This document shows, piece by piece, positions 1 to 29,219 of a stretch of DNA of 53,696 bases. Under the pieces are notes generated by a model. That model did no database searches. It worked only from the letters and a program-made list of their open reading frames with translations, and was not told the DNA's origin. Source of the DNA: Candidatus Micrarchaeia archaeon (GTDB lineage: Archaea; Micrarchaeota; Micrarchaeia; Norongarragalinales; UBA8480); assembly GCA_039794045.1 (NCBI GenBank), contig JBAMLY010000015.1:6404-60099 (forward strand), read 5' to 3'. Position numbers and translations under genes: made by a program. Position 1 is the stretch's first letter, and each line of letters begins with the position of its first letter.

Positions 1-72
1 GTGAGCATGTCTTCGCCGAACGCGTACAACTGGGGAATGTACTTGAGGGCTACTGGAGTAAATGTTCCCTAG
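1..72 (+). CDS. Possible 3' end of an upstream gene (partial, ...SPNAYNWGMYLRATGVNVP*)
   Basis: Frame 1 is open from the window edge to TAG at 70-72, followed by a promoter-like AT-rich stretch. Too short to identify. Confidence 0.3.
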   Translation: MSMSSPNAYNWGMYLRATGVNVP

Positions 73-144: not shown

Positions 145-3100
145 ATGTTCGATGACTTGAAGGAGAAGTACGCTGAATTCGTTGAGTCTTTGGAAGAAAA
201 AGGGGTTCCGCGTCCCCAGCTTCTCGTGCCCCTCGCGTTAATTGTTTTAGTGGTGGCAGTCGTTTTCTTGGTTAATCCGTTCGTCCAGCAAGCGATTTCG
301 TCGGCGAAGACTGGTTCTGTGGTGGTGAGCGTGAGAGACCAAGCTGGTTCTCCGCTTGCTAACGCGTTCGTGGAACTCGTTTACTCGGCGAACGGTTCTT
401 CTTTTGCTCAGGCAGTGGCTGGAGGGGACGGGAGGGCGTCGTTTTCTGGCGTGCCGTTGGATGGCTCGGTGGAAGTGCGGGCGAGCGCTTCAGGCTTTCA
501 AAGCAAGAGCGTTGCGCTGTCGCCCGAGGGAGAAACTGTGGTCAACCTCGCAGTAGTCTCTCCTGAAAAGAAGGAGAGAGAGTTTAGGGTTAAAGTTAAG
601 AGCAGCGAGGGTGCTCCAGTCGAGTTTGCTTACGTTACGCTTTCTTTCGATGACGGTTCTTCTACTGGCGTTTTCACTGACGCGAGCGGCTACGCGCAAT
701 TTTCTTTGGACAAGAATTACTCGCACGCCACCGTGAAAGTAGAGGCTCCAGGGTTTGTTTCGTTGGAGAAGAGCGTGGGGGCAGCTGACTTGTCTTCTGG
801 CGTCGCTGAATTCGCGGCAGAACCGGTAGCGCAAGCTACTTCTTCTCCGGAGGCAGTCAAGAAGGGAACGTTTAAAGTCGTGGTCTTCAGCGCGGGAGTT
901 CCAGTAAAGGGCGCGAGAGTGAAGCTGGTTGACTTGGCTGCGAACGAGTTCGGCGCGGGAATTACTGGCGACGATGGAGTAGCCGCTTTTCCGGGAGTTG
1001 TTTTCGGGAAGCAGTTCGTCGTAAGCGTTTCAGCAGATGGTTTCCTGGACAAGCAGTCGCAGGACTACGTTACTTTTTCTTTTGACGGGCAGTCCGAGCA
1101 AGTTTTCTTGGAGCGCAAGATGAGTGGCTCGACTTCAATGGTTTCCTTGGTGGTTGAAGACGAGCAAGGCAACGCAGTGGCTGGCGCGGAGGCAAGCTTT
1201 TTCTTCAAGGACTCAAACAAGCTTGCGCGTAAAGAGGTTTCCGGGGAGGACGGGCGAGTTGCGTTCGAGGCAGTAAAGGGAGTCCAGTTTTACGTTACTG
1301 TTTACAAGCAGGGCTTCCTGCCTGGTTTTCTTGAGGCAGTCAAGGCAGGGGACTCTAAGAAAATGGTTTTGAGAGAGGAAGTGGCTGGCAGCGTTGCAAC
1401 GCTTTCAGTGAAAGTGTTGGCTGACGGCTTGCCTGCGGCGAACGCTGAAGTGGCGCTTTACCGTGAAGGCGGGTTTTTCTTGGGCGTTCCAGTGTTTTAC
1501 GCTGACGCGAGCGGTTTTGCGAGCGTTGTCGTGCCCAACCAATTCAATTCAGCGCCTTACAAGGTTTACGCGAAAGCGGTTTCCGGGACTGCGAGGGGGC
1601 AAAGTGATTTGCTTGAATTGAGTCCTCAGACTAGTGAAGCTAACTTGAGTTTGGTGCTGCGTTCTCCGCCTGCCGCGCTGAACTTGAAAGTCGTTGACTT
1701 GGCTACCGGCAAGCCAGTGCCTGGGGCGAGCACGCAGTTGCTCGTGCAAGGAAACCCTGTTGATTCGTGTACTACCACGCAAGAGGGAGTATGCGTTTTT
1801 TCTGTCGCTGCAAATATTCCGTTTTCTTACGCGGTCAAGGCGTCAGGTTACTTGCCGTTCGCTTCAAGCGAGTTATCTCTCGAGAGCGCTTCCAGTCGCA
1901 ACGAGACTGCTTCTCTTTATCCTCTGGCGAGCGGGTTGCGCGCTCAGTTTCTTGGGTTGTTTAACGCGCGCGGCTTGGTGAGGGAGGCAGCCAATGGCGA
2001 GACTTATTCCGCGAAGTTCGTGGTAAGCGTTCCCAGTGGCTCGGAGCAGGCTGGCTTGTACGTGCGGTTGGGTGACAAGGCTTCGGCGGCAGACGAGATA
2101 GCTTTTATTTCTGATTACGACAAGAGCGCGGCGAGCGTGGTTTACGCTGGCTCTTCCTTTGACTCTTCAGCGCAGTGTCCAAGCGAGACGGCTGGAAGCG
2201 GCGACGAACTCAAATGGGTTTTATTGGTGCTTCCCAAGGGGTTCGTGGGAACCAAGGAAGTTTCTTTTACGGTGGTCGTGCGAAAGCAAGCCGGGGCAAA
2301 CGATTCAATTAACTTTGCTTTCCGTGCCTTCTCGGTGCGCAACAACACGGTTTTCCTTTTCCCGAGTGATGCAGTGGCAGCGCAAGAGCTTCTCGCGAAG
2401 TCGCAGTCTAATGCTTCTCTTTCAACGCAAGACTTTTGCAGGGCAGGCACGGCGAACGCGAGTGTGCCGCTGACTTCCCAGCCCCTTGTTTGCAGCGAGG
2501 GTGGCGAGTTGTGCTACAAGTTTTTCTTTGAGTCAGATGGCGTGGCGAGTTCGAGTGGTTTTCAAGCCACGCTCGGCAAGGAATTTGTTTTGCGTTACGA
2601 GTTGTTGTCTGACTACGTGATTGACTCGTTGTCTCTTTCAAGTGATTATTTGAGGGTTGCAGGTTATTCTTCTCAGGCGGCGAGGTTCGCTGACGACGAA
2701 GCGCCAGTCGTTGCCGCGCAGCCGCAGAAGGTTGCTGTCAACTCAAGGCCTGGAGTGAAGAGCGTGGGCAGTATTACTTTGAAGCCGTTGCGGGCGACGC
2801 AGTCTGGCGTGCTCTTGATTTCTTTCTCTAGCCCGTCGAGCGTTGTCTTGCCCGAGGTTAGGCTGTCTTTCTCAGTGGTTGGTTCTAACTACTTCCGCGT
2901 AAGCGTTTCGCCGCAGTCGCTTCGTGTTGGAGAGAAGCGCAAGGTGACTGTGAGCGTGTTGGACAAGCTTGGACAGCCTGCTTCTGACGCGGTCGTGTCT
3001 TTGTTTGAGTGCGAGGGCGAGCCGTTTGGTGGAAACGAGCCTTCCGCGGTAGTCGGAGATGGTTCTTCGGGTGCTGGCGAGGACGGCAAATACGTTTTCA

Positions 3101-7257: not shown

Positions 7258-7280
7258 AGCGCGGTTCTCTTTTGCGCGCT
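7258..7280. terminator. Small hairpin between convergent genes (possible terminator)
   Basis: AGCGCG (7258-7263) and CGCGCT (7275-7280) form a 6-bp stem with a T-rich loop between two stop codons. Confidence 0.3.
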
Positions 7281-7702
7281 TAAAGCTTGTCGGCAATCAA
7301 GTGGCTGGCGTAAGCGGCGAGCCCGCAGAACGCCATGCTTTTGTCCAGCGTTGCAGCGAATACAAGCGCGAAGAACGCTAGCGCGGCAGGCCACTTGTGC
7401 GTGATGCCTCTGTGTTGTGGCTTCAGCAAATAGAATGCCAGCGCAGCAATTGCTCCGCCCGCGATTCCGTGTGCTAACCCGAAATAGTTGTTTAACAGGA
7501 AAACTACGGCGATGAAGACGACTAAGAGTGCGGCCTTAAATGTTTTCGTCTTGCGGTGGTCGACGTCCGGCAAGAGCGCGCCGAGTACTACAACGGCTAA
7601 AAGTTGTGGAGTCCAAGCGCTTGAAAGTCCCGTGAAGGAGAGCGCGAGGTTGGCGGCGAAAGCGCAAGAGAAAGCGAAGACGATGTGCGCGAAAGAATTC
7701 AT
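7280..7702 (-). CDS. YdjM-family membrane-bound metal-dependent hydrolase
   Basis: Motifs H(IVFAF), GALLPDVDH, HRGITH and ASHLIAD on a multi-TM scaffold. Confidence 0.85.
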   Translation of the reverse strand: MNSFAHIVFAFSCAFAANLALSFTGLSSAWTPQLLAVVVLGALLPDVDHRKTKTFKAALLVVFIAVVFLLNNYFGLAHGIAGGAIAALAFYLLKPQHRGITHKWPAALAFFALVFAATLDKSMAFCGLAAYASHLIADKL

Positions 7703-8232
7703 AGGAAGTCACGTAGTCTGCCTTTCAAATCAACGTGGTTTTCTAGCACTTCGTCAATGAAATGGTTTTTTTCTGCTGCGAGTTCCCGCAACCGTTGTGG
7801 AGAGACTATTTTGAAGTCACAGCGCAGTCTCATGCTTTGCTCTAAGCGCTTCAGTAGACGCTGGCAGTACTCTGCCCTCATGTTGGTTACTACGAGAAAG
7901 TTTGCTTGCCTGCGTGAAAGCGAGTCTGTCGCGTAAATAGCTATTGCTTCCAGGCGCGCGTCTGAAGGGAGCGCTTGAAATGCTTTGCCTGCGAATAAGG
8001 CGGTGCGCATGCAGCGAGCGAATGGGTTTTCCTCGTTCAAGGAATAGTACGCTCCATTTCCCTTCATTTCTTTTTTCAGCACGCTTTCGGCAAGCATTTT
8101 CCTGCATATTACGCTCGCAGAAGCAGGGCTTATCTTGAGTTGCCGCGCGAGTCCTTGCACGTGCGCCTCCCTGCCTTCCTCCAAGAAAAAGCGCAGAATC
8201 CGCCAGGCGACAGACGATTCCAAAGCCTTCAT
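7699..8232 (-). CDS. Winged-HTH regulator fused to a degenerate nucleotidyltransferase-like domain
   Basis: N-terminal HVQGLARQLKISPASASVICRKM...YYSLN wHTH. The C-terminal part follows the MNT pattern, but hhYGS..G..DhD reads IAIYATDSLSRRQANFLVV. Start placed at ATG 8232 (the track starts at 8274, inside the promoter region). Confidence 0.7.
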   Translation of the reverse strand: MKALESSVAWRILRFFLEEGREAHVQGLARQLKISPASASVICRKMLAESVLKKEMKGNGAYYSLNEENPFARCMRTALFAGKAFQALPSDARLEAIAIYATDSLSRRQANFLVVTNMRAEYCQRLLKRLEQSMRLRCDFKIVSPQRLRELAAEKNHFIDEVLENHVDLKGRLRDFL

Positions 8233-8261
8233 AATTGTTCTATTAAATGAATTATTGTTTG

Positions 8262-8313
8262 AATTAAAAAACATTTCGAGGACTTTTTCTGCGCGTTTAC
8301 GAATGTTTTTATA
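8262..8313. promoter_or_regulatory. Divergent promoter pair with a 9-bp inverted repeat
   Basis: AAAAACATT (8267-8275) and AATGTTTTT (8302-8310). Each arm runs into a TATA-like box: TTTTTTAA on the minus strand, TTTTTATA (8306-8313) on the plus strand. Confidence 0.55.
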
Positions 8314-8374
8314 GGCTTGAATTCCTCTATTTCTTTGGTTTGAGCGCGTTCGCGCTTGCGGGGGCTTGGAGTTA

Positions 8375-11300
8375 ATGGCAGAAGAAAAGGGGCTTTACTA
8401 TGCTTTGGAGGACAAGTATTATTCTTTGATGGAGTGGATTGAAGGCAAGCTCCACATTCCTGTCGTCAGGTATTTCGTTGACCCGATTGAAAGCCGTGGA
8501 ATTCCTTCCATGCCTGTTTTCTTGCTTGCCGTATTGCTTTTCGCTGGCGTAATCGCTTTTATCGCTTTTCCTTTCCTTTCTACTGCTGGCCTTCAAACCA
8601 CTATTTTGGATGTTCAAGTAATGGCCAACGGCGCGCCTTTGGATGGAGCCCAGGTTACTCTTTTGTACAACGGCGAGCCGTTCGCTTCAGCGGTTTCTTC
8701 TGATGGTGTTGCTTCTTTTGAAAACGTGCCGGTTCGCGGGGGCTACTCGGTTCGCGTGAGCGCGCCTGGTTACGCGAAATTTGAGAAGCCAGTGACGCTT
8801 TCAAGCGAGCCGGTCTCATTTACTGCTTCTCTTCAGTCAGAGGGCGGCGCCGTGATCGCTACTCCAACGCCTTCGGGGCGCGAGTACAACTTTGTCGTCG
8901 TCGTAACCGACACGGCAGGCAAGCCGGTAACGAATGCAGTGGTCGACTTTTCGAGTCCTTCGCCTGGCGGAGACAGTGGGAGCTCAACTACCAATGCGCA
9001 GGGCGAGGCGGTGTTGAAGCTTTCCACTCAAGAACAAATATTGTTGATTGACGCGCACGCTGACGGTTACTTGGACGAGCGCAAGGCCGCGCGCGCTAAA
9101 GACGGCGGAGTAAAAATAGAGTTGACTTCTTCTGGCAATGCCTTCTTTGACTCTAATGGCGACAACTCTGGTGGCGCGAGCGAGGGAGGGCAAGCTTCCT
9201 TTGAAGGCGTTGACGTGCTCGCCACCATCCGCGATGACGCGGGCAATGGCGTGGCAGTAAAATGCGTTCTCTACGACGAGCAAACTTCCACGCCTTTGGA
9301 CTCTGCAGCCAGTGATGTGGGAATTTGTTCTTTCAAGAAAGCCGCTCAACCAGGTGAAAGCGTTTACGTTGAAGTAACTCCTAAAGATTCTTCTTTCCTC
9401 TCGAAAACGTCGGACTCCGGCATAGCGCAAGAAGGGAGGCTCTTAGAGTTTAAAATTACTTTAGAGCGCGCTACCCCGCCTTCCACTCAAGAAATAAGGG
9501 TTTCGTTCAAGGACGAGGAAGGAAAACCTGTTTCGAGCGCGAGCGTGAACTTGTACTTGCTTGAATCAAACAAGTTGCTTGGCTCTTCTTCTACTGACGA
9601 GAATGGCTTGGCTTCGTTCGAGGTTTCTTCAGCGATTCCTTTGACGAGTGTTTACGTGACCGCTTACGCTGAGGGATTCCTGCCTTTGAGCCGCGAGCTC
9701 TCTGGCAAAGACTCTTCCTTTGTGCTTCAAGCTGCGGTGACTGGCAACAACGCTGACTTGGCGGTGCGCGTTAAAGACGACGACGGCGTGCTGGTTTCTG
9801 GTGCTACTGTAGTGCTTTTGGATGGCGAGGGAAAAATTCTGGGCATGCCTGCGGGAACGACTGACTCGGCTGGAATCGCTGACTTTCACGGCGTTCCAGT
9901 GGGAGTTGAGTTGCGTGCTCGTGCTGCGAGCGCACCCCGCTTTGGTGAAAGCGATGTTTTCTCGTTGTCGTTGGGAGAAGAGGAGAGGACAGTGGATGTT
10001 TTCCTTGCTCCAGCGCGTGGCTCGATAAGAGTTTTCGCGGAAGACCTGGCTTCGGGAAAGCCTGTCGCAGCGTTGAAGGCTACTGCCAAGCTAGCGCGGG
10101 ACGGAACGCTTGAAGGAAGTTGTGTTACTGACGACAACGGCTCTTGCATTATTCAGGACGTCGTGGCTGGAAAGGAAGTAATCCTGGTCGTTAGCGGGCC
10201 GGGCTACGTTGAATTTACTTCCTCGCCTTTTGCGGTTCCCGCCAACGAGATAATGGAAAAGAAGTTGAAGTTGTTGCCTTCCTCGCTCTCGAATCAAACG
10301 CAAGTGTTCTTGGCTGAGGTGAGGGACGAGCAAGGAGTGGATGTTACTGGAGCTGGCGTGCTTTCCAAGGCGGGCTATTATTGGGTGCGCGTCGTCGCCA
10401 ACTTTCCTAAAGGAGTGGAAGAGCAGGGAATAATGCTTCGCGTGGGAGACAAGCCAACGCCAGCAGAAGAACCGGCTTACATTGTTTCGTTTGACTACGC
10501 TCCAGTCGGCGTTGCTGCTCCCGTTGGGTTTGCGGGGGCTTCTTATTCTCCTTCCGGCGACTCTTCTTCTGACTTGATGAACAGCGACGTTTCTGGTGGC
10601 GCGAAGTTCGTTGGAGTGCGGTTTTCTGGTCTTGCTGGAAGCGCGGAATTGAAGGCACGAATTTTCGTGAAGCCAACGGCGCGGCCTGGAATAGACAAGG
10701 TTAAGTTATACTACCGCGCTTGGTCGCGTTCTGGGGAAGTGTTTTCTTACGAGCCCGCAGACGCCGTGTTGGGGAATTCGCGTAAGGCGGCGGACCGCGA
10801 CTCGCTCTACGCTGAATCAAGGCTGGCTTCTTATGACGTCGTGGACGGCGTTCTAGTGTGCAATGACGCTGGAACGGCGTGCGCTGCGTTGTCGTTTTCT
10901 TCTCCTGAAAACACTGTTCCTTCTCCTTCGCCGTTTCAAGCGGTTCTCGGCAGGGACTTTACCGTGAAATACGATTTACGCGTTTTCGGCGCGTTCGAGG
11001 CGTCAACTGCTTACGCGCGCTTGTGGAACCCTGACGAGACTTTGAAGCTCAAAGACTTTTCAGGCGATGGCACGAGTCAAAAAATTTCAGACTTCGAGGA
11101 ACGCGTTATTCTTTCAAGTGCCAAGCAAAACTATTCTGGTTCGTTTGCCGTAACCCCGATTCTGCCCAACCAGAACGCCAGGCTCGCCTTCGAGTTCGGC
11201 GATGGCAGGGGAAGAATTTTGTTGAGTGACGCTAACACCGTAATAGTGCAAGGCAAGGGCAAGCTATTCATAACTGGCTTGTCTCCAGCGTCCTTGACTG

Positions 11301-16432: not shown

Positions 16433-16448
16433 TTGGAAGTGGTGGGCA

Positions 16449-19400
16449 ATGTCTTTACAAGATTTTTTTGTGGGTTTGCAGGAAAAGTGGGAGGAGTTCC
16501 TTGAGTGGAGCGACGAGAATGGCTTGCCGTTCCGCGAATGGAATGACGCCCTGGAGGCCCGCGGCATTCCCGCAATGCCGGTGTTCGCGCTCGCCGTTGC
16601 AGTCGTCTTTTTTGTGGCGTTCTTTCTCGTGGCCGGCTTTCCACAAATTCCTGGGGTTACCGTACAGCCTACTGCCACCGTAAAGCTCACCGTGTTGTCC
16701 GAGGAAGGAATAGGAGTTCCTAACGCGTTGGTTCAATTGAAGGCGAACGGCAAAATAATTGCCGCCAAGAACACTGACAGCAGGGGAATCGTTACTTTCT
16801 CTGACGTGCCAGCCGGCGAGCTTACTGCCGTGGCTTCGGCGGCTGACTTCAAGCAAGACTATGTGAGCGTGACAACTAAAGGCGGCGAAGCTTCAGCCCA
16901 GAAACTCGTTTTAGTGCGCGTTTCAAGCTTTAAAGTAGTAGTTTCCTTCGAAGTTCAAGGCCCCCAGTCCGCGAACTTCAGCGTTTGGGATGAAAACAAA
17001 ACGGTTTTAATTGACTCTGCTTCTGGCGCGACTGCTTCCTTCGAGTTAGAGCCCAGCAAGAATTACTTGGTGCGCGTTGAAGCCCCACAGTACACTCCAG
17101 AGGAGAGGCTGGTGCCAGTGGGAACAACTAATGCCGCGCCAATTTACGTGCGCTTGTTCAAGACGAGCGAGCCACGTACTGCTTCGTTGCACGTACTAGT
17201 TTACGACGACAAAGGACTCACGGGAGCGCCGATAGCCAATGCCTCAGTTCAAGTGCGCGCCAACAACTCCGAGGCAGTGATTGCGACCGGCGTCACGGAC
17301 GAAGAAGGCGCGATAGACGCTGTGGAAGCTCCAGTTGGTTCGCTGGTAACAGTTTACGCGAGCGCGCCAGGCTACTTGTCCACTGAAACAGAGGCTTTCC
17401 AAGTGCCAGAGGGAAGCGTTTACAAGAGAGTGCGGCTGGCCAGGAAAACCGAGGAAAACTCTAAAGCGATCGCGGTGAGCGTGACTACCGCCAGCGGCGA
17501 ATACGTTTCCTCGCCCACTGTGCGCTTGTACTGCGGCGGCCGCAAGAGAGACGAGAAAACTCCTGCAAGCGGGACGACTTCGTTTGACGCCGCGCTAGGA
17601 GAAAAGTGTTTGGTTACCGCTTTCAAGGAAGGCTTTCTGCCTGCCTCAAAGCAAGTGACCGCGAAAGGCGAAGCGACTCTCGTGCTCAAGGAAGCGACTT
17701 ACCTTAACTCTGCGTCGCTGGAAGTGAGCGTGGTGGACTCTGCAGGCAATCCAGTTCCCATGGCTTCCACTACAGTATTCAATTACTCGGGCGAACCACT
17801 TGGAATCCCAGAAAAGACTACTGGACTCAGCGGAACAACTTCTTACTACTTGCCTGAAGGCGATTACGTGGTGAGAGCTTCTTCGGGCAACAGCGAGGGA
17901 AGTGCGAAAACAAGAGTTTCGTTTAACGCCAACAACTCAGTGCAAGTCAAGCTGGCGCCCCTCAAAGCGGTGGCGGCAGTAACAGTTCAAGACTATTATT
18001 CTAATGCTTCAATTGCTGGCGCGAAAGTAACCTTGAAAGACGCGTCCGGCGCGACTGCTTCCTGTCTTACTTCGCTGCAAGGCTGTTCGCTTGAAGCTCA
18101 AGAAGGCCCTGCAGTCGTCTCAGTCGCTGCGCAGGGCTACGAAGACTATTCCGGCACGCTGGAATTAAGGGGAGGCACTACCACCAACTACTCGGTTGTT
18201 CTCGTGAACTCAAGAGTTTCAGCCGACGTCAAACTCGCGTTCCTCGGAGTTTTCGACTCCAAGGGAAGGCAAGTAAACAAGTTGTCGCCGGCAACTGTTT
18301 ATACTGCGCGCTACCTACTCAAAAACCCGGGAATCCCGTTCTACTCTGCCGAAGCATTCGTTTTGCTTGGCAGCGCGAGCAGCTCCCTCGAATCCGAAGA
18401 CGCGGAAATAATCGAGTACTCTGCAGACGGCGCGTCAATCACGGCGGGCGCTGATTTCTCGTCTGCCGCTGACTTCAGCGTGGAAGCGACTGCTACTGCA
18501 ACGCCTCAAAACTATTCACAGTCGAACTCGTCGGGCGGCGTTGCAGTGCTGCCATCCACAAAAGGAACCTCGCTCGCCTCCAACGCGGAAGGCTGGAAGT
18601 GGGTTAAATTTGTTTTCCCGCAGTTCAATGGCACAAAAGAACTCCGCGTGAAAATCCGCACCAAGCCAGTAGCGAGTGGCGCGCTGTCTTTAAGCCACCG
18701 CTCCGCGTTTGCCACGGCACGGGGAGTGTTACGCGACCCAGAAGACGCGGCTGCCGGCACTTCAAAGTCGCCTCTCCTCGCCAACTTGAAGCCCTCCGCA
18801 ACCTACGAAGTATTTTTCGCGGGAGAGTGCCAGAACGGGTTGTGCGTGCAAGCCTTCCTGGAAGGACAACAGGGAAGGTCGGCTGACTCGCTTGAAGCCC
18901 TCATTCCCGAGCAGTTCAAAGTGCGCTTTAGCGTCGCGTCAGCTTCAGGGCAAGCCACTCTCACTCTTTCAACTGAAAGCAATGCCTTGCAGTTGGTTGA
19001 CGCGTCAGCCGGCGCCACTAAAGTCGCCGCGAAAAGCCCTGCAGGAGAAACCCAGGAACTATCAATAAAATCAGGAGGCGATGGCGCGTTCAACGTAAAA
19101 GCAAAAGCGTTCGCGAAAGACGCCCGCCTCGTCTTGAACGCGGAAAGCGGCGACGCAAAGTACGAGAAAATTTTCTCGGTTCGCGTAGTCAGCCCAAAGA
19201 ACTCGCTTAAAGTTTCTTTGAAGCCAGAGCGCTTGATAGCACTGCAAGAGAATACAATAGTTTTCAAGGTGACAGACACTTTAAACAATCCAGTAACAAA
19301 CGCGCGCGTTGTGATAGGCTCGCAGGAAGACGCGCTCGGCTCCACCGTCGAAGCAGGGCCTGCAACAGGCAAGAACGCCGAGCCAGGAACTTACGTCGCG

Positions 19401-22400
19401 AGCCACGTTTCGCCGAGAGCGCACGGCAGCGTGCAGTGGAAAGTTGAAGCAGAAGGCTACAAAGCGAAAAGCGGGGAGGTAGACGCGATAGCCCGCAAAA
19501 TAATTGAGTTGAGCACGCGCTCTCTCTCGCTAAACGCCGACGGCCAGCCCGCGTCGTTCACAGTCTCTAACTTGCTGGAAAACGAGGTAACCGTTTCCGC
19601 GAGCGTCGCAGCCGACGAGAACCCTCAATACACTGAATTCGTGGTAACTCCAGCCACAGCCAAGCTCAAGCCACGCGAAGAAAAACAATTTCAGTTGACC
19701 GCTCGCCCCAAGCCAGGAGTGCTGACGGTAGCCGAGAAAGACTCGACTCTAACCGAAAAAACAAGCGGACGCGTTCACGTCACCGCCAGAGTAGCTGAAG
19801 CAGCGCAGGACGAGGACGCGAGGTTTTCGTGCACGAACGCCTTGCAGCGCTCCGCTCTTTCAAGCCTCCTCGAATACTCTGACGACGCCCTAGACTTTTC
19901 CTTGAACCCCCCTCGTGCCTCAAAGCAGTCAAAGAAAATAACGATTACCAACAACGCGCCTTACCCCGTGCTCGTCAACCAACAGTCTCTGGCGCCAAAC
20001 GTGCGAGTCACGCCACTCTCGCTCACCATTCCAGCGAACGGAAAAGCAGAGTTCACTGTGACCGCTGGCTTGCCGCCCGAGTCCGCGAACGACAAATGCA
20101 TAGTAGACGATTCAACTACGGAAAGCGACATTGAATTCTATGCTTCCTTCCAAGGCATTAGCGCCACCAAAGTAGTCAAAGCAAAAATTGCTTTGACGGC
20201 GAGCACGCGCTGCTACCTCGCCGACGGCCTAGTGTACAACTTGCCCGTGCCCGTGGTCTTCAAGTTCCCGGCTGGAACGAAAGTGCGCGGAGCACCCGCC
20301 GACGACGGCTCCATTCCAGTGCTTTTGCCTGACGGAAACAAAATGGTTTTCTTTGAAGGAACATCTATTTATGGGCCGTACGCAGTAGAGCGAAGCCAAC
20401 CTTACTACGATTCAAGTTATTCTTTCGACTCTTACCCCCAGTACGGAGAGTACGGCAGCATGGTTTACTTGCAGACTCAAACTGGATTGACGCCCCTCCA
20501 GTTCGCTCAAAGCCCGTACGGAAGCATTCCCTTCTATCCAGCAAGCGCTGCTGCGCCCTACTACCAGAACCCGCAAGCTTACTTCGGCGGCTCGACGCAA
20601 ACCCAGACGCAGACGACGAGCGTCACCCTCCAACAAGCAGTAGTACCCGCGGGCGTGGGCTTCGTCATGTCGTCAAAGTTCGCGCGCCAGCTCGCCATAG
20701 ACCCCGTAACGCTAGCAAGCAACGCCGTGGCAGTAACCTTCCCAGTAGTCGCCTTCCTCGAACTCCCAGTGGACGCGCGGCCCGTTCCAGACGCGGCTGG
20801 AGTGCGCTACAACCTACGCAACGCCTACGTCGTCCTACCGGCAGGCTTGCCGACCATGCGCGCGCCATCTTACGGCAACATCGTGCAAGTCCCGCCAGGC
20901 ACTCCACTATTGTTCGGCCGCACTGGCTCGAATTACGGCAGCATGGAATTGTCTTACGACGAAGACACTTACATTGACTTTCCACGCGACGCAGTAGTCC
21001 AACAACTCCCGAGCGGAGTGCAAGCCACTCTCTCGGAGTGCGCGCAAGTGAAAGTAAAGAGCTTGGACGACAAAATGACTGACTCAACGCCAGCCGCGAA
21101 AACGGTTTTCGTGGAAGGCGGCACTCTCTTTGGAGCCAACAAGAACCGCGTCATCGTGCCAGCTCAGGCGAGAATAAAAGTTTCCACTTGCTTGGACGTG
21201 ACAGAAGAACAACAAAAGCTTTTCTGCAGCTCTCGCAGGCAACCAATGACGCTCGTGCTCCCGCCAGGCTACCGCGGCCCGCCCTCGCGCTTCACGATAG
21301 CATTCGACTCCTGCGTTCCAATGGACGTGAAAGGCGCTCGCGGCTCCCAAGTTTCTGCGGTGAGAAAAATTTACTTCGAGCCCACCGCTAAAGGACAACA
21401 ACTTTCTTCGGGAGGACAACAACTCTACCAAGTAAGCGTGCCCGAAGGAAGCCAGTTATGCGTGCTTCCCTGCGACGCGTCGGGAACCGTTTCAGTAACC
21501 GCTTACGGCGACTACTTAGACTTCTCGCCGAAGACAATCAATTTTACTCTCTCGGATTCAAGGCAGTCCGCCCAAGCCGAGTTGTGCTTGTACAACACTG
21601 GCAGCGAACTCCTCCAGCCATTCAACCCAGAATCATACGTTGAACTCATTTCCTCGCCCACGGACGACGAGGCATTCAAGTCCGCCGTCAAAAAAGAAGG
21701 AATTTACTTTGCCGGCCAAGTTGGAAAACCCGCAAACCTCCCTCTCTCGTTCGAGAACAAGGCGTGCAACAAGCTCGTAGTGGAAGCCAGCCTCCCTTCT
21801 TCAGGCGACTGGACTGACGCTTACGGCTGCGTCAAAAAAGAAGGAACGATAACCGGCTCCATCAAGTTCCACGCAAAATCCACTAAGTGGCAGGGGTCAG
21901 TCAGCGTTCCAGTCACCATCAAAATAGTAAGGCAAGCAAAAAACTGCAACTCGCCTGCAGCCTTAGACAAAGCGAACTCGCTGCACTCCTTCTTCGTCAA
22001 CTACGCTGACTCAGTGCTTTCATTCAAAGCCCCCGGCCACTACCGGTTCGTCATCCTCGCAAACAACTTACTGGAACCAGCCACTATTTCCTCCAACCTC
22101 GACTCGTCGTCGCCAATAAAATGCGATTTCCCGCAACAACTAGCGCCAGGCGAAGCCAAGCTAGCAAAATGCATTTCGTTGAAGCCCGCCGAAAACTTTC
22201 AGTTGAAAATTACTGCAAAGCCAGCGCGCGCTGCCAGCCTCGACTTCCTCGTGAAAGTCAACGTTTTCAACGCGCAAGACAGCGTCTACGATTCAACGCC
22301 GCTCGGCGAGCTCGCCCCCCAAACCACGCAGCAAACGAACCAGACGGCCGCGCAGAGCCCCCCACAAGCTTATTACGTCGTCTGCGAGAAGTACTTCTGC

Positions 22401-24686
22401 AACGCCGCCCAAGCGAGCACCGCTTATTCTTCCTTCCTCGCGGCAATGAAGTCCTTCCTTGACTCCGTGACCGCGGACGCGGCAACGCACCAGCGCTTCT
22501 GCCAGTCTACTGTGGGCAGCAGCGAGGAAAACGCGTTGAAAGTAGTAGAAAAAACAATAGTAATACAAAAAACGGCTGCAACTCAGTCCATCGCAGAGTT
22601 CAACGAGCAATTCCTCAAAACAGCGAGGGAAATCCTGCCCGACTACGCTTCAGGCGAGAACTTCTTCCAAGGAATTCCAAGCGAAAGCATTGCTGGCTGC
22701 GGCTGGTACAAAGTCAGCGTCGCGCTCGATGCCTGCAAGGAAATGGGTTCGCACGCCAGCCAGGACTGGAAGAAGCGCGTGGGACTACGCGTGCGCATAG
22801 AAAGAATGAGCGAGAGCGACGAATGCAAGCCCACGCTCGCCAACGCCTTGCTGTTCTTGAAGGCAAGCTCTCCAGACTCTCTCGGAGTAACAGTGGGAAA
22901 CCGCGTGGCAGTATGGCCAGACGAAGTAAGCGGCAAGCGCCTGCTCTCAGTAGTTGACAAGACAAAAGAAAACTGGGACAAAGTCAAGGCAAGCCAGCCT
23001 TCAACGTGGCTTTACTTGTTCGACGTAGGCGTCCTCGCCCTTGGCCCCTACGCAGACCAAGCCGACGAAGCAGACGTGAAGACCGCGCAAACGCTTTACC
23101 AAATGATTTACGGACAGCAAGCAAAGTCAGCCGCAAAGTCAACTTACTACGACGACGCAACATTCTGCAGCGCAAACGCGCCACAGCAACTCAAGTGGAT
23201 TGCGGTAGGCGGTTCTTCTCTCGCCGCCGCAGGCACGCTACTCGCCTTCCTGCCGGCAGGCGCGTCCCAAGTAGTTTCGGCGTTCCTCGTCCCACTCGGC
23301 TTGAAGCTCGCGGCAGGCACGGCAACCACGGCAGCACTCTGCGTGGGAAGCGCGGCCGCTTACGGAGAGAAAGGAACGTGCGCTCGCTACAACGACTGCA
23401 TTCGCAGCGCGATTTTCGGCGCAGCAACTGCAGCCATTCCCACGGCTGGCGAGCTCGCGGCATTCAAGACTGCTTCTGCAGCGTTGAAGACTACTGCGGC
23501 GCTCACTGCCTCGACTGCGGGCGTGGTGAGCGCCGTCAACTTGCTTGCGCCAGACGGCCCCGAAACCACTGACGCCACGATTCCATTAGTTGCAACGGGC
23601 TACGCGGCAGCCACTACTGTTTCTTTCTCGCGAGCGCAAGCTCGCGCGGCTTCGCCGGTCGCCAAACTCGAACAACAAGGCGCGCTATTGCCTGGCTCGC
23701 CGTTCGGAAGAGAAGTTGAATCCCTCATTGCTCAGGGAACAAGTTGGGAGGACGCAGTCGCGTCAGCGAGAGAAAAACTCGTGGCAGAAAAGGCGCAGGA
23801 ACTCGCGAGAATGAAGCCTTCCGCGCTTGGAGAAATTGCTTACGCGCACAGCATAGACCCAGCACTCGCTGCTTCCGACGCCGCCGTCCAGAAAAGCCTT
23901 GCCACTGCCATCGTATTAGAGGAAACCAGGCCTGCCTCCGTGCTGCAGCAAATGGAGAACGTGAAGCTCTTCAACGGAAAAATTCAGTTCGCTGAACCAG
24001 CGTTCGCCGCTGGCGCTGGTATCTTGCCGCAACAGCAAGCCAAGCTAACGCAGTTGCTTGACCCCAAGTCGTTCGCCCAACAAACGCCTTCGCAGGCGTT
24101 CCTTGGACTGACTGACGCCGAGAAAACAGTTTTCAAGGCCGCGGCAGAGAAGACGAGCAAGGCGAGAAACGCTTTAGTGAAGAGCTCGAACGCTTTCAAG
24201 GCAGGCGCGCAAATAGGCGCTACGCTATTGTTCCAGGTTGACGCGCGCCCCGTCATGGCCAAGCTTGACCCCGCCCTGCCAACTCATTTCGTTGCCTACC
24301 ACTTGACGAGGAAAGGCGATTCCTTCGTTCCAACTGCCTTCAAGCTCTGCGTCACTGAAAAACGCGTTGGAGTAGAGCCGGACGAGGACGGCTGCGTTAA
24401 AGGGCAATCGTTTTACTTAGCTGACTTGTGCAACTCGGATTACTCGGCTTGCTTGTACGAAACGCCGGTCTACACTTCCTCGCCTTCCGCGCCAGCCTAC
24501 AACTTGGTTGTTGCGGTGAACGACGAGAGAATCGACGCCAAGGCATTGCTTGAGTCTGTGTTCTTGCCTGACGCCAAGCCGTTGACGGCAAACATTGGCG
24601 GAGGAACGCTTTCGCCGCAGAAAATCGCTGAACTCGCGCAAACGAGGAACGAGAAGGGAAGCGGCAAGGCGTTCGCCGGAAAGTGA
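16449..24686 (+). CDS. Giant membrane-anchored surface protein 3 (2745 aa)
   Basis: LEARGIP plus TM helix, six repeats collinear with proteins 1 and 2, a Y/Q/P-rich segment, and a long Ala/Gly-rich hydrophobic region near the C-terminus. Starts 16 nt after protein 2. Confidence 0.85.
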   Translation: MSLQDFFVGLQEKWEEFLEWSDENGLPFREWNDALEARGIPAMPVFALAVAVVFFVAFFLVAGFPQIPGVTVQPTATVKLTVLSEEGIGVPNALVQLKANGKIIAAKNTDSRGIVTFSDVPAGELTAVASAADFKQDYVSVTTKGGEASAQKLVLVRVSSFKVVVSFEVQGPQSANFSVWDENKTVLIDSASGATASFELEPSKNYLVRVEAPQYTPEERLVPVGTTNAAPIYVRLFKTSEPRTASLHVLVYDDKGLTGAPIANASVQVRANNSEAVIATGVTDEEGAIDAVEAPVGSLVTVYASAPGYLSTETEAFQVPEGSVYKRVRLARKTEENSKAIAVSVTTASGEYVSSPTVRLYCGGRKRDEKTPASGTTSFDAALGEKCLVTAFKEGFLPASKQVTAKGEATLVLKEATYLNSASLEVSVVDSAGNPVPMASTTVFNYSGEPLGIPEKTTGLSGTTSYYLPEGDYVVRASSGNSEGSAKTRVSFNANNSVQVKLAPLKAVAAVTVQDYYSNASIAGAKVTLKDASGATASCLTSLQGCSLEAQEGPAVVSVAAQGYEDYSGTLELRGGTTTNYSVVLVNSRVSADVKLAFLGVFDSKGRQVNKLSPATVYTARYLLKNPGIPFYSAEAFVLLGSASSSLESEDAEIIEYSADGASITAGADFSSAADFSVEATATATPQNYSQSNSSGGVAVLPSTKGTSLASNAEGWKWVKFVFPQFNGTKELRVKIRTKPVASGALSLSHRSAFATARGVLRDPEDAAAGTSKSPLLANLKPSATYEVFFAGECQNGLCVQAFLEGQQGRSADSLEALIPEQFKVRFSVASASGQATLTLSTESNALQLVDASAGATKVAAKSPAGETQELSIKSGGDGAFNVKAKAFAKDARLVLNAESGDAKYEKIFSVRVVSPKNSLKVSLKPERLIALQENTIVFKVTDTLNNPVTNARVVIGSQEDALGSTVEAGPATGKNAEPGTYVASHVSPRAHGSVQWKVEAEGYKAKSGEVDAIARKIIELSTRSLSLNADGQPASFTVSNLLENEVTVSASVAADENPQYTEFVVTPATAKLKPREEKQFQLTARPKPGVLTVAEKDSTLTEKTSGRVHVTARVAEAAQDEDARFSCTNALQRSALSSLLEYSDDALDFSLNPPRASKQSKKITITNNAPYPVLVNQQSLAPNVRVTPLSLTIPANGKAEFTVTAGLPPESANDKCIVDDSTTESDIEFYASFQGISATKVVKAKIALTASTRCYLADGLVYNLPVPVVFKFPAGTKVRGAPADDGSIPVLLPDGNKMVFFEGTSIYGPYAVERSQPYYDSSYSFDSYPQYGEYGSMVYLQTQTGLTPLQFAQSPYGSIPFYPASAAAPYYQNPQAYFGGSTQTQTQTTSVTLQQAVVPAGVGFVMSSKFARQLAIDPVTLASNAVAVTFPVVAFLELPVDARPVPDAAGVRYNLRNAYVVLPAGLPTMRAPSYGNIVQVPPGTPLLFGRTGSNYGSMELSYDEDTYIDFPRDAVVQQLPSGVQATLSECAQVKVKSLDDKMTDSTPAAKTVFVEGGTLFGANKNRVIVPAQARIKVSTCLDVTEEQQKLFCSSRRQPMTLVLPPGYRGPPSRFTIAFDSCVPMDVKGARGSQVSAVRKIYFEPTAKGQQLSSGGQQLYQVSVPEGSQLCVLPCDASGTVSVTAYGDYLDFSPKTINFTLSDSRQSAQAELCLYNTGSELLQPFNPESYVELISSPTDDEAFKSAVKKEGIYFAGQVGKPANLPLSFENKACNKLVVEASLPSSGDWTDAYGCVKKEGTITGSIKFHAKSTKWQGSVSVPVTIKIVRQAKNCNSPAALDKANSLHSFFVNYADSVLSFKAPGHYRFVILANNLLEPATISSNLDSSSPIKCDFPQQLAPGEAKLAKCISLKPAENFQLKITAKPARAASLDFLVKVNVFNAQDSVYDSTPLGELAPQTTQQTNQTAAQSPPQAYYVVCEKYFCNAAQASTAYSSFLAAMKSFLDSVTADAATHQRFCQSTVGSSEENALKVVEKTIVIQKTAATQSIAEFNEQFLKTAREILPDYASGENFFQGIPSESIAGCGWYKVSVALDACKEMGSHASQDWKKRVGLRVRIERMSESDECKPTLANALLFLKASSPDSLGVTVGNRVAVWPDEVSGKRLLSVVDKTKENWDKVKASQPSTWLYLFDVGVLALGPYADQADEADVKTAQTLYQMIYGQQAKSAAKSTYYDDATFCSANAPQQLKWIAVGGSSLAAAGTLLAFLPAGASQVVSAFLVPLGLKLAAGTATTAALCVGSAAAYGEKGTCARYNDCIRSAIFGAATAAIPTAGELAAFKTASAALKTTAALTASTAGVVSAVNLLAPDGPETTDATIPLVATGYAAATTVSFSRAQARAASPVAKLEQQGALLPGSPFGREVESLIAQGTSWEDAVASAREKLVAEKAQELARMKPSALGEIAYAHSIDPALAASDAAVQKSLATAIVLEETRPASVLQQMENVKLFNGKIQFAEPAFAAGAGILPQQQAKLTQLLDPKSFAQQTPSQAFLGLTDAEKTVFKAAAEKTSKARNALVKSSNAFKAGAQIGATLLFQVDARPVMAKLDPALPTHFVAYHLTRKGDSFVPTAFKLCVTEKRVGVEPDEDGCVKGQSFYLADLCNSDYSACLYETPVYTSSPSAPAYNLVVAVNDERIDAKALLESVFLPDAKPLTANIGGGTLSPQKIAELAQTRNEKGSGKAFAGK

Positions 24687-24692
24687 TGAAGA

Positions 24693-25370
24693 ATGCCAGC
24701 ACAAAAAAAGAACGTGGAAGAACTCGCCCGCAAGGGAAGCCGAAACCTTTTGCTTGTCATAGTAGTGGTCGCGTTTTCTGTCGCCGCGCTTTATTATTAC
24801 TCGCAAGAACAAGCAAAGCAAATTGCTTTCCAGCAACAAGCTCCAGCGACTCTGGCTGCGCAGGGACGCGAGCTCTCGCTCTCGCCAACGCAGGTGAAGT
24901 CCCTCACTTTTTCTTTCACTGACGAAGAGTACGGCTTCAAAATTTTTTACCCGAAAACCTACAAGGCAGAAGAAAACCCTGACGCGGCAACGCGGTTGCG
25001 CTTCACCACGCAAAACCCTGCCAGCACCCTCCAAGAACCGCGTTCAGCTGAAGTGGTTGACTTAAGGGTCTTTGACTCGCAGGACGCCCTTGAACACGTT
25101 TCCGCGCAAGAAGCAGCGCAAAAAATCGCTGGCGAGGCCGGAACGCAGTACGAGAAAATGGTTTCGGCGAACGGCAAACCGTTTTTCTTCGTGAAAGGCA
25201 CAGTGGCAAGCGACGTCACGGGAGAGCAGTTGTTGTTGCGTGCCGCGTTCTACGACTGCAAGACGAGAGAGGAAAGGGCTTACACTGCCGCGTTGATCGC
25301 TGTTATTCCCTTCGAGTTAGAGTTTGATGCGTTGTACTGGCAGCAAATAATGAAGTCGTTCGAGTGCTGA
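24693..25370 (+). CDS. Membrane-anchored PsbP/Mog1-like domain protein
   Basis: N-terminal TM helix and the FTDEEYGFKIFYPKTY motif typical of the start of PsbP-related folds. Starts 6 nt after giant protein 3. Confidence 0.6.
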   Translation: MPAQKKNVEELARKGSRNLLLVIVVVAFSVAALYYYSQEQAKQIAFQQQAPATLAAQGRELSLSPTQVKSLTFSFTDEEYGFKIFYPKTYKAEENPDAATRLRFTTQNPASTLQEPRSAEVVDLRVFDSQDALEHVSAQEAAQKIAGEAGTQYEKMVSANGKPFFFVKGTVASDVTGEQLLLRAAFYDCKTREERAYTAALIAVIPFELEFDALYWQQIMKSFEC

Positions 25371-27149: not shown

Positions 27150-27161
27150 AGGGATTGCTTG

Positions 27162-27431: not shown

Positions 27432-27444
27432 CGTTTAGAGGTGC

Positions 27445-27813: not shown

Positions 27814-27859
27814 TTGGCTGGCAGCAGTCTTTAAATGCGGTGACCCCCATTATTTTTTC

Positions 27860-28422: not shown

Positions 28423-28432
28423 AGGTGAAAAA

Positions 28433-29204: not shown

Positions 29205-29219
29205 GAACTCATTAACTCC

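What the first reader, a model, noticed from the sequence alone, without database searches (positions are those of the whole stretch)
145..24686. Three giant paralogous surface proteins with a register-matched N-terminal stalk (possible hetero-oligomeric attachment filament)
Seen: all three proteins have the same order of parts: amphipathic helix, xExxG[VI]P, TM helix, then exactly six carboxypeptidase-regulatory-like repeats with repeat-specific signatures. Repeat 4 ends GFLP in all three, repeat 5 carries LGxP (FLGVP/ILGMP/PLGIP), and repeat 6 has a Cys pair (CTTTQEGVC/CVTDDNGSC/CLTSLQGC). Then come a shared large beta domain (QFLGLFN/VFLAEVRD/AFLGVFD...KWV/KFV/KWV...), a Cys-linked domain, an SPxSL/PERL Ig-like domain and a Y/Q-rich segment, after which the C-terminal halves diverge. 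Inference: conserved repeat number and order across such diverged paralogs suggests they must stay the same length, for example co-assembling as one stalk with three different tips. Established background: DPANN symbionts contact host cells, and very large surface proteins are candidate mediators.
Basis: partly seen in the sequence, partly recalled or inferred. Interest (0 to 1): 0.85.

Follow-up and report, generated by a model that had tools for sequence, protein, structure and literature searches.

The report
Giant fixed-stalk surface proteins of Micrarchaeota
Three neighbouring genes of a tiny symbiotic-type archaeon encode huge membrane-anchored surface proteins from an undescribed family whose stalk has the same number of domains in hundreds of relatives, which makes them good candidates for cell-to-cell contact, but there is no evidence yet that the three join into one filament.

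Summary
ORFs 145-7257, 8375-16432 and 16449-24686 encode three paralogs of 2370, 2685 and 2745 aa. They are 24-29% identical over the first ~1100-1200 aa and unrelated beyond. Each has a conserved cytoplasmic helix, an ExxG[IV]P motif, one TM helix, six position-specific CarboxypepD_reg-like repeats, and about five further beta-sandwich domains, one of which is a seventh repeat. An aromatic-rich low-complexity segment follows, then a type-specific distal half.

The organism is a Micrarchaeota (Norongarragalinales) MAG. The genes belong to an undescribed family found in Micrarchaeota and Iainarchaeota, with at least 297 representatives at 50% identity. In 124 representatives with intact N-termini, the distance from the TM helix to the mid domain is 504-580 aa, while total length runs up to 5147 aa. 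So the six-repeat count is invariant across the whole family, not only in this trio.

Three ancient types (A, B, C) are about equally common and usually lie in tandem arrays of 2-3. A pilin-like ~430-650 aa protein sits upstream of type A and a ~240 aa membrane protein sits after type C.

The best reading is fixed-length surface fibres carrying three different heads, probably for envelope-spanning host or cell contact. Hetero-oligomeric assembly remains possible but untested. Array composition varies (B,B,C; A alone; C alone), and the window's three stalks match no more closely than unrelated family members do.

The parts
1..72 (+). 3' end of the upstream gene, probably the pilin-like accessory protein ('acc460' family) that precedes type A giants in other genomes
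   Evidence: The 102-aa partial ORF on the slightly longer JGI contig (L018 2-310) best matches the C-terminal ends of the acc460 proteins of L005 (E 0.013) and L001 (E 0.11), co-linearly. The support is weak but consistent. The acc460 family is defined.
145..7257 (+). Type A giant surface protein (2370 aa). Cytoplasmic helix and LEEKGVP motif at aa 1-25. TM helix at aa 26-44. Six repeats at aa ~57-592 (nt 313-1920). Mid region of about five beta-sandwich domains at aa 590-1189 (nt 1912-3711). CxxC x4 cluster and aromatic/Gly-rich hinge at aa ~1190-1340. Fast-evolving distal half. Gly/Ala-rich hydrophobic stretch at aa 2242-2275 (nt 6868-6969).
   Evidence: It has its own TATA-like box and SD-like element upstream.
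7280..7702 (-). YdjM-like (PF04307) membrane hydrolase gene, syntenic with the array; also found between acc460 and the first giant in L001
   Evidence: Gene calls on identical contigs L017 and L018 and on L001.
7699..8274 (-). Small winged-helix (MarR-like, below Pfam threshold) ORF, divergent from type B; a possible local regulator
   Evidence: MarR_2 E 9e-5, 22.9 bits against a cut-off of 27. Called as a gene on L018 and L019.
8375..16432 (+). Type B giant surface protein (2685 aa). Double N-terminal motif (YYALEDKYY...IPVVRYFVDPIESRGIP). TM helix at aa 47-65. Six repeats at aa ~78-630, the third degenerate and carrying a low-complexity insert. Mid region at aa 632-1254 (nt 10268-12136). 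Pro/Tyr/Asn-rich hinge at ~aa 1400-1520. Distal half conserved in about 15 representatives, ending in a Cys-rich tail.
16449..24686 (+). Type C giant surface protein (2745 aa), starting 16 nt after type B. Double N-terminal motif (WEEFLEWSDENGLP...ALEARGIP). TM helix at aa 45-63. Six repeats at aa ~77-583. Mid region at aa 584-1182 (nt 18198-19994). Tyr/Gln/Pro-rich hinge at ~aa 1290-1400. Distal half conserved in at least 28 representatives. The terminal module at aa 1975-2745 (nt 22371-24683) holds a Cys-rich alpha/beta domain, Gly/Ala-rich hydrophobic helices (aa ~2236-2404, nt 23154-23660) and a conserved C-terminal beta domain.
24693..25370 (+). 'acc240': a 225-aa single-TM protein with a C-terminal Cys, starting 6 nt after type C; conserved immediately downstream of type C in L001 and L004
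   Evidence: (30-34% identity, E 1e-21 to 1e-23). No significant Pfam or NCBIfam hit.

Best explanation
The three genes encode the three ancient paralog types (A, B, C) of a previously undescribed family of giant cell-surface fibre proteins. The family is specific to Micrarchaeota and Iainarchaeota.

Shown:
- Each protein has a conserved acidic/aromatic N-terminal segment that ends in ExxG[IV]P, followed by one hydrophobic helix. I read this as a signal anchor with the N-terminus in the cytoplasm.
- An invariant ~1150-aa chain of about 11 beta-sandwich domains follows: six non-interchangeable transthyretin-like repeats, a larger sandwich, two disulfide-bearing domains, a seventh repeat and an Ig-like domain.
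- An aromatic low-complexity hinge and a 1100-1550-aa distal half complete the protein. The distal half differs by type. It is conserved in C, moderately conserved in B and fast-evolving in A.

Inferred:
- The invariant chain is a fixed-length, fixed-identity stalk. It carries the distal heads a set distance from the symbiont's membrane, most simply across the pseudoperiplasm and S-layer.
- The heads make contact with other cells or surfaces.
- Type A supplies variable specificity.
- Type C supplies a conserved function, possibly membrane-active through its Gly/Ala-rich helices.

B, C and acc240 form one operon. The pilin-like acc460 gene and A form a second unit. The constant repeat number is an ancestral, family-wide constraint, not a property tuned among these three proteins.
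For: Architecture.

Stalk fold: AF2 model of aa 590-1189, mean pLDDT 79.6, all-beta. Foldseek finds only multi-Ig/MG-domain chains.

Positional orthology of the repeats.

Family size and invariance: 818, 590 and 297 representatives at E <= 1e-3, 1e-10 and 1e-30. TM-to-mid-domain distance is 504-580 aa in 124 representatives, whose lengths reach 5147 aa. The N-terminal motif is present in about all of them.

Taxonomy: every named member is Micrarchaeota or Diapherotrites/Iainarchaeum.

Rates of the distal halves: C is conserved in at least 28 representatives, B in about 15, A in essentially one.

Operon structure: the B-C gap is 16 nt with GGTGG before the ATG, and the C-acc240 gap is 6 nt. A has its own TATA-like and SD-like elements.

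Extracellular character: 35-44 Cys per protein with conserved pairs.

Cost: 23.4 kb in a lineage with a genome of about 0.93 Mb (PMC8561730). The genes are intact and nearly identical in at least three assemblies, which implies strong purifying selection.
Against: No direct evidence exists for surface exposure, adhesion or a host. Some Micrarchaeota and Iainarchaeota lineages are argued to be less host-dependent or free-living (PMC12892359 abstract; PMC10936187).

A stalk that is only a spacer usually tolerates gain and loss of repeats. The absolute invariance and repeat-specific signatures suggest that each domain has a fixed partner, so it is more than a simple spacer. The partner could be another chain, the S-layer, or intramolecular packing.

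The distal halves have no recognisable ligand-binding, enzymatic or toxin domain.

Topology rests on hydropathy only.
Confidence: 0.55

Rival explanations
1. A, B and C, possibly with acc460 and acc240, co-assemble in register through their matched N-terminal stalks into one filament with three different tips. The six-repeat count is then conserved because chains of unequal length could not pair.
For: - Tandem arrays of 2-3 paralogs occur in 11 of 15 loci across two phyla.
- The gene order acc460-A-B-C-acc240 recurs: window, L006 (A-B), L008 (B-C), L001.
- B and C are translationally coupled.
- Types A:B:C are about 1:1.2:1 among representatives.
- Repeat-specific conserved residues are shared across types.
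- The invariance is unusually strict for a mere spacer.
Against: - The invariance holds equally for singletons and for arrays of other composition: L003 single, L004 C only, L005 A only, L001 B,B,C.
- The window's three stalks differ by 21-46 aa, as much as unrelated members do.
- A is transcribed separately.
- No coiled coil or other oligomerisation module was seen.
- No interface prediction was possible.
- Residues conserved across types are mostly Gly, Pro and Cys, which are fold determinants.
Confidence: 0.2
2. This is the pilus-related reading. The conserved [KR]G-[IV]P junction followed by a hydrophobic helix would be a class III (prepilin-like) signal. After cleavage, the giants would be incorporated through their N-terminal helices, together with the pilin-like acc460 protein, as giant minor subunits or tip adhesins of a type IV pilus-like fibre.
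For: - acc460 proteins carry canonical prepilin-like N-termini (MRKA/FVAAPLIGTILF, RKG/FISTPLLG, HRG/FNLFTALL) and are adjacent to type A in L005, L006, L011, L012 and L016, and probably in the window.
- The giants have [KR]G at the exact cytoplasm/TM boundary in most representatives.
- Type IV pilus genes are reported in Norongarragalinales and other Micrarchaeota (PMC8561730; PMC5498576).
- Thin filaments are seen on ARM-1 cells (PMC11329633).
Against: - The leader is long (25-100 aa), acidic and itself highly conserved, unlike short basic prepilin leaders.
- An invariant Pro at +2 does not fit the usual archaeal class III pattern (from my own knowledge of the FlaFind-type motif).
- The G is replaced by N, S or K in some members.
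- There are no Pfam or NCBIfam pilin hits.
- No pilus ATPase, platform protein or peptidase is recognisable in the window.
Confidence: 0.1
3. This is the envelope-structural or compact reading. The N-terminal modules would not be free fibres. They would be fixed parts of the cell envelope, either struts tying the S-layer to the membrane or a compact MG-ring-like body as in alpha-2-macroglobulins. The domain number would be fixed by tertiary or quaternary packing, and the proteins would serve envelope architecture or defence rather than host contact.
For: - Strict domain-number invariance is typical of compact multi-domain bodies (from my own knowledge of the MG1-MG6 ring of C3/alpha-2-macroglobulin).
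- Sub-threshold to marginal Pfam hits to bMG3 and MG4, and Foldseek hits to bacterial alpha-2-macroglobulins and to the Haloferax S-layer protein 7ptp.
- ARM-1 envelopes show discrete densities running from the S-layer towards the membrane (PMC11329633).
Against: - No thioester CxEQ motif and no A2M, TED or bait-region domains.
- Foldseek TM-scores are <= 0.22, so only single domains match, not an arrangement.
- The identified Micrarchaeum S-layer protein is an unrelated 101-kDa protein (bioRxiv 10.1101/2021.04.28.441871).
- Hypervariable type A heads and protein lengths up to 5147 aa fit exposed interaction modules better.
Confidence: 0.1

Closest known systems
Giant repetitive bacterial adhesins (RTX adhesins such as LapA, MpIBP and SiiE; Bap/SasG type)
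   Same: They are very large. They have a cell-proximal anchor, a long stalk of tandem beta-sandwich domains and a distal region that differs between proteins. They often take up a large share of a small genome.
   Different: Their stalk repeats are near-identical and vary in number. Here six divergent, position-specific repeats are invariant in 124 representatives. There are no RTX nonapeptides, no T1SS signal and no LPxTG. The host is an archaeon, and the anchor is an N-terminal TM helix with a unique cytoplasmic motif.
MSCRAMM / Cna-B (SpaA-fold) Gram-positive adhesins (the NCBI name given to the type B protein)
   Same: Prealbumin-like beta-sandwich repeats. There are weak PF17802 SpaA hits.
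   Different: No LPxTG sortase signal and no C-terminal wall anchor. SpaA hits are at or below threshold with no independent stretch. The organism has no peptidoglycan wall.
Nanohaloarchaeal giant 'SPEARE' surface proteins (PMC10266531; Hamm et al. 2019 as cited there)
   Same: They are giant membrane-anchored extracellular DPANN proteins with Ig-like domains, proposed to mediate host interaction.
   Different: SPEARE proteins are 6000-9400 aa, with beta-propellers, a VirB4/TraG-like ATPase domain and an adjacent VirB4-like ATPase. None of these is detected here, and there is no sequence relationship.
NOMO (nodal modulator) of eukaryotes
   Same: It is a membrane-anchored chain of CarboxypepD_reg/transthyretin-like domains with a fixed domain number, thought to act as a rod-like spacer (from my own knowledge). 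Precomputed faint hits to PF22904 NOMO1-like occur in homologs.
   Different: It is an ER-luminal eukaryotic protein with a C-terminal TM helix, no variable distal head and no N-terminal motif. The similarity is at domain level only.
Alpha-2-macroglobulin / thioester-containing proteins
   Same: MG-like beta-sandwich domains, with bMG3 and MG4 Pfam hits and Foldseek hits 5a42, 4rtd and 4u4j. The bacterial forms are membrane-anchored at the N-terminus.
   Different: No thioester motif and no TED, CUB or bait region. TM-scores are <= 0.16 for these hits.

Membership tests
CarboxypepD_reg (PF13620) domain-containing proteins | Significant match to the PF13620 profile above the gathering score | tested here: met
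   106, 107 and 97 bits against a cut-off of 32.3, with five stretches in each protein.
New Micrarchaeota/Iainarchaeota giant-protein family (defined here) | N-terminal ExxG[IV]P motif and a single TM helix; six repeats; the family-specific mid region starting ~505-580 aa after the TM helix | tested here: met
   All three window proteins match. The same layout occurs in 124 representatives.
MSCRAMM / sortase-anchored Cna-B adhesins | C-terminal LPxTG sorting signal with a hydrophobic tail; Cna-B/SpaA repeats above threshold | tested here: not met
   No LPxTG anywhere. SpaA hits are 24-28 bits with no independently significant stretch.
RTX / T1SS giant adhesins | GGxGxD nonapeptide repeats and a C-terminal T1SS signal; near-identical tandem repeats | tested here: not met
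   Zero GGxGxD motifs. The repeats are divergent and position-specific.
Alpha-2-macroglobulin / TEP | Thioester CxEQ motif within a TED domain; A2M and bait-region domains | tested here: not met
   No C.EQ motif. No A2M or TED Pfam hits, only MG-type sandwich hits.
Archaeal type IV pilin-like proteins (class III signal) | Short basic leader, [KR][GA] cleavage site directly followed by a ~20-aa hydrophobic helix; processing by a FlaK/PibD-type peptidase | tested here: inconclusive
   [KR]G followed by a hydrophobic helix is present in most members, but the leader is long, acidic and conserved, and Pro is invariant at +2. No pilin profile hit. Cleavage cannot be tested here.
Archaeal S-layer proteins | Similarity to known S-layer domains; very high abundance; lattice formation | not testable with these tools
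   No S-layer Pfam domain. The published Micrarchaeum S-layer protein is a different 101-kDa protein. Abundance and lattice formation need experiments.
Nanohaloarchaeal SPEARE giant proteins | VirB4/TraG-like ATPase domain, beta-propellers, and an adjacent VirB4-like ATPase gene | tested here: not met
   None of these domains is found in the three proteins or their neighbours. The features are as described in PMC10266531.

The most novel reading that the evidence does not exclude
The conserved cluster acc460-A-B-C-acc240 would encode one hetero-oligomeric host-contact organelle. The ExxG[IV]P-plus-helix N-termini would be prepilin-like and would bundle with the pilin-like acc460 protein. The invariant 11-domain stalks would run in register. 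The conserved type C head would insert its Gly/Ala-rich helices into the partner cell's membrane to form the intercellular bridge seen between Micrarchaeota (ARMAN) and their hosts, while type A would supply host specificity.
Probability: 0.1. Interest if true: 0.9.

Novelty: new variant of a known kind. Interest (0 to 1): 0.62.

Why it matters
How DPANN archaea recognise and hold on to partner cells is an open question, and no attachment molecule is known for Micrarchaeota. This family gives a concrete, widely conserved candidate.

- It is restricted to Micrarchaeota and Iainarchaeota, and it takes about 2.5% of a ~1-Mb genome.
- It comes in three ancient types: one conserved head, one moderately conserved head and one hypervariable head.
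- It is linked to a pilin-like gene.

The strict invariance of a six-plus-five-domain stalk over hundreds of diverged members is unusual for repeat-containing surface proteins. It points to a molecular-ruler or fixed-partner constraint, and that can be tested directly in the existing co-cultures.

The conserved N-terminal ExxG[IV]P anchor motif may mark a dedicated targeting or processing route for giant archaeal surface proteins.

Tried and rejected
(1) Two of the three word-indexed protein searches returned nothing useful. The type C distal half gave no hits, not even itself. The mid-region profile returned only two unrelated repeat proteins. Candidate selection was probably swamped by low-complexity or repeat words.

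With the 3-sequence alignment it found 8 genome loci and only 2 metagenome loci, so the context sample is small (15 loci).

(3) The distal halves gave no significant hit against PDB sequences. The type C terminal-module profile gave only Hbl-L1 at E 0.14. I treat that as noise, not as evidence for a pore-forming toxin fold.

(4) The AF2 model of the type C terminal module had low confidence (pLDDT 53.9). Its Foldseek hits (GPCR-like helical bundles, E >= 0.14) are not meaningful.

(5) The thioester/alpha-2-macroglobulin idea was rejected: there is no CxEQ motif.

(6) Sortase/MSCRAMM, PGF-CTERM and RTX features were rejected.

(7) Strain-level hypervariation of the heads was not seen. The variants in public assemblies differ by only 0-2 residues, so they carry no information.

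(8) A first attempt to measure stalk length from the G[IV]P motif mis-anchored on later VP motifs. It was replaced by the TM-based measure.

(9) Pfam and NCBIfam found nothing for acc240 or acc460. The weak PsbP and ComGF hits (E 0.03-0.12) were not used.

(10) Literature searches found no description of this family.
Full report
**What is in the window**

The window carries three very long + strand ORFs: 145-7257 (A, 2370 aa), 8375-16432 (B, 2685 aa) and 16449-24686 (C, 2745 aa). The remaining genes are ordinary archaeal housekeeping genes. They include a DUF424 protein, pyruvate:ferredoxin oxidoreductase subunits, a family B DNA polymerase, fibrillarin/Nop5, Sua5 and a class II tRNA synthetase.

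Exact-sequence look-up places the three proteins in MAGs named Candidatus Micrarchaeia or Candidatus Norongarragalinales. NCBI calls them only 'carboxypeptidase regulatory-like domain-containing protein', 'MSCRAMM family protein' or 'hypothetical protein'. The trio is intact in at least three independent assemblies, with 0-2 amino-acid differences per protein, so these are real, selected genes.

Together the genes span 23.4 kb. The described Norongarragalina genome is about 0.93 Mb (PMC8561730).

**Checking the observation**

The three proteins are clearly paralogous over their first ~1100-1200 residues and unrelated beyond. BLASTP gives A/B 28.5% over 1122 aa (E 2e-67), A/C 24.9% over 1203 aa (E 1e-31) and B/C E 1e-23.

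Each protein has one strongly hydrophobic N-terminal helix: A aa 26-44, B aa 47-65, C aa 45-63. The helix is preceded by a conserved acidic/aromatic segment ending in LEEKGVP, IESRGIP or LEARGIP.

Pfam detects CarboxypepD_reg with E 1e-27 to 6e-31. A repeat HMM built from the family finds six N-terminal repeats, plus a seventh at about aa 940-1070. In B the third repeat is degenerate but detectable.

They correspond to invariant columns in an 11-sequence alignment that includes other genomes.

Repeats of the same index score 48-90 against each other across proteins. Repeats of different index score 28-41. The array therefore predates the paralog split and has never been reshuffled.

**What the conserved N-terminal half is**

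An AlphaFold2 model of A residues 590-1189, built with nine homologs, has mean pLDDT 79.6. It is all-beta, with about five beta-sandwich domains and one short helical hairpin.

Foldseek against the PDB returns only chains of Ig/MG-type domains: HYDIN-like ciliary proteins, bacterial alpha-2-macroglobulins, titin, integrin legs and the Haloferax S-layer protein. Query-normalised TM-scores are <= 0.22, so the resemblance is at the level of single domains, with no enzymatic or lectin fold.

There is no thioester motif. There is no LPxTG, PGF-CTERM or RTX motif.

The first ~1150 residues are therefore a chain of about eleven beta-sandwich domains attached to a single N-terminal membrane helix.

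**The family**

The first homology search found relatives only in Micrarchaeota. A profile of the mid region was then searched against 1.84 billion representatives. It finds 818 proteins at E <= 1e-3, 590 at <= 1e-10 and 297 at <= 1e-30.

In the 124 best representatives with an intact N-terminus, the distance from the end of the TM helix to the start of the mid region has a median of 539 aa. The 5-95% range is 513-554 and the extremes are 504-580. Total length ranges up to 5147 aa, and the part after the mid region ranges from nothing to 3900 aa.

The N-terminal motif is present in essentially all of them. Every member that carries an organism name is from Micrarchaeota or Diapherotrites/Iainarchaeum.

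The N-terminal motifs define three types:
- Type A has a single motif, KEKY..F..SLEEKG[VI]P.P..LVP.
- Type B has Y[FY].[LV]ED.YY...D....[IL]PVY..FV.PIE..G[IV]PSFP.
- Type C has W..FL.W.DEKGLP.......LEEKGIP.LP.F.

Their frequencies are similar: 36, 43 and 26, plus 14 unclassified that are mostly C-like. Their stalk lengths are nearly the same: 540+/-13, 545+/-8 and 526+/-14 aa.

I found no description of this family in the literature. The published Micrarchaeum S-layer protein is a different 101-kDa protein. The nanohaloarchaeal giant SPEARE proteins have a different domain content.

**The distal halves**

The distal halves evolve at very different rates.
- The type C half (about 1550 aa) is recognisable in at least 28 representatives.
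- The type B half is recognisable in about 15.
- The type A half is recognisable in only one close relative, plus a few partial matches. Type A proteins of L005 and L006 share nothing with the window's A beyond the stalk.

The type C terminal module has four parts: a Cys-rich alpha/beta domain, a Gly/Ala-rich moderately hydrophobic region, a variable linker and a conserved C-terminal beta domain. Its AF2 model has low confidence (pLDDT 53.9) and predicts long helices over the hydrophobic part. Neither sequence nor fold searches give a significant match.

A Gly/Ala-rich hydrophobic stretch lies about 100-200 aa before the C-terminus in the window's type A protein and in several of the highest-ranked representatives (P0018-P0021, P0026, P0027). 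Overall, 37 of 110 full-length representatives have such a distal stretch. That these stretches insert into a membrane is speculation.

An aromatic, Gly/Pro/Gln/Asn-rich low-complexity segment follows the mid region in all three window proteins. It is also present in 82 of 131 representatives, against 16 of 131 for a control region.

**Genomic context**

B and C are 16 nt apart, with GGTGG before the ATG of C. C is followed after 6 nt by a 225-aa single-TM protein (acc240) and then by DUF424. A has its own TATA-like and SD-like elements. It is separated from B by two minus-strand genes, a YdjM-like hydrolase and a small winged-helix protein.

acc240 homologs lie directly after type C in L001 and L004.

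A second accessory family (acc460) consists of Cys-rich proteins of 430-650 aa with prepilin-like N-termini. It lies directly upstream of type A in L005, L006, L012 and L016, and between two giants in L011. In L001 it lies upstream of YdjM. The truncated ORF at the start of the window best matches acc460 C-termini (E 0.013).

The most common order in Micrarchaeota is thus acc460-A-B-C-acc240. It is seen in the window, in L006 (acc460-A-B, cut at the contig end) and in L008 (B-C).

Of the 15 distinct loci, 11 hold two or three family members in tandem. Five hold three: the window, L001, L013, L014 and L015.

Composition varies, however.
- L001 is B,B,C, with no A between acc460 and YdjM.
- L004 has C, split into two ORFs, with toxin-antitoxin genes upstream rather than B.
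- L005 has acc460-A flanked by unrelated genes.
- L003 has a single divergent member with 10 kb of housekeeping genes on each side.

**Interpretation**

Repeat number is fixed, and paralogs do occur together. The step from 'equal length' to 'they must pair' is not supported specifically.

The length is equally fixed in family members that stand alone or sit in arrays of different composition. The three window stalks (546, 567 and 521 aa) differ from each other as much as unrelated members do.

The more economical reading is that the ~1150-aa module is an ancestral, indivisible unit whose domain number is fixed by a constraint common to all members. The simplest candidate is the geometry of the symbiont's own envelope: a ruler that places the head beyond the S-layer. 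A set of domain-specific partners is the alternative.

I note that a pure spacer would normally tolerate gain and loss of repeats. The strictness of the invariance therefore leaves real room for lateral association, homo- or hetero-oligomeric, or for docking to the S-layer. I give the hetero-oligomer reading 0.2. I give 0.1 to the pilus-linked variant, prompted by the pilin-like neighbour and the [KR]G-[IV]P junction. I give 0.1 to a purely structural or compact reading.

Function as a contact or attachment fibre is inferred from several features together. These are the architecture, the taxonomic restriction to DPANN lineages, the genomic cost, the conserved-versus-hypervariable pattern of the heads, and extracellular hallmarks (35-44 Cys with conserved pairs). 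It is not shown.

**Novelty and verdict**

Giant beta-sandwich-repeat surface proteins are a known kind. This is a new, large archaeal family with unusual features: a unique conserved N-terminal anchor motif, an invariant 6+5-domain stalk, three ancient head types, and linkage to a pilin-like gene.

I rate it a new variant of a known kind, with interest about 0.6. It would rise sharply if co-assembly or membrane insertion into a partner cell were demonstrated.

Noticed in passing
window 145-276, 8375-8569, 16449-16637 (N-termini of the three giants): The cytoplasm-side segment before the TM helix is one of the most conserved parts of the family across about 130 representatives. Glu at -4 and Pro at +2 around ExxG[IV]P are invariant in the 11-sequence alignment. 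Types B and C carry the helix-'G[IL]P' element twice in tandem, and type A carries it once. No known sorting signal matches it.
   Followed up: partly
window 26676-28729 (+): A run of five or six small multi-TM proteins (90-157 aa, no Pfam hit) is conserved near family members in L004 (13362-15260) and L003 (19732-20490 and 24885-26106, minus strand), at 30-55% identity. It could be an unrecognised membrane complex linked to the giants, or simply lineage synteny.
   Followed up: partly
window 29263-30894 (+) and 28773-29264 (-): A ~544-aa ORF has no Pfam hit. Its 'VCVVGGARSNRLHVVHVL' segment looks like a degenerate P-loop context (HerA/VirB4-like?). It overlaps the end of a 163-aa minus-strand ORF. 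The function is unknown.
   Followed up: no
window 3745-3882 (type A aa ~1201-1246): Four CxxC motifs lie within 46 residues (CQAC, CFNC, CAQC, CTGC), embedded in a Gly/Ala/aromatic-rich segment. This may be a metal-binding or disulfide knot at the stalk-head junction. Cys-rich clusters occur at the equivalent place in P0002 and L005.
   Followed up: no
window 39791-43301 (+): A further predicted surface protein (776 aa, Big_2 domain E 2e-8) is followed by a 381-aa protein with only weak hits. They are unrelated to the giant family but add to the surface-protein load of this small genome.
   Followed up: no
L004 1994-10916: The type C ortholog is split into two overlapping ORFs (1974 + 1015 aa, 50-nt overlap). 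This is either a frameshift or sequencing error, or a genuine split at the junction before the conserved terminal module.
   Followed up: no
L013 16917-18443: An AAA-ATPase-like ORF (P-loop GVRRSGKST, of the DUF4143-like type often seen in mobile or defence contexts) is inserted between the second and third giant of that array.
   Followed up: no
window 1 / L017 1 / L018 1: Three independent assemblies all break within ~240 nt upstream of gene A, inside the presumed acc460 gene. This suggests a repeat, strain-variable or hard-to-assemble region there.
   Followed up: no
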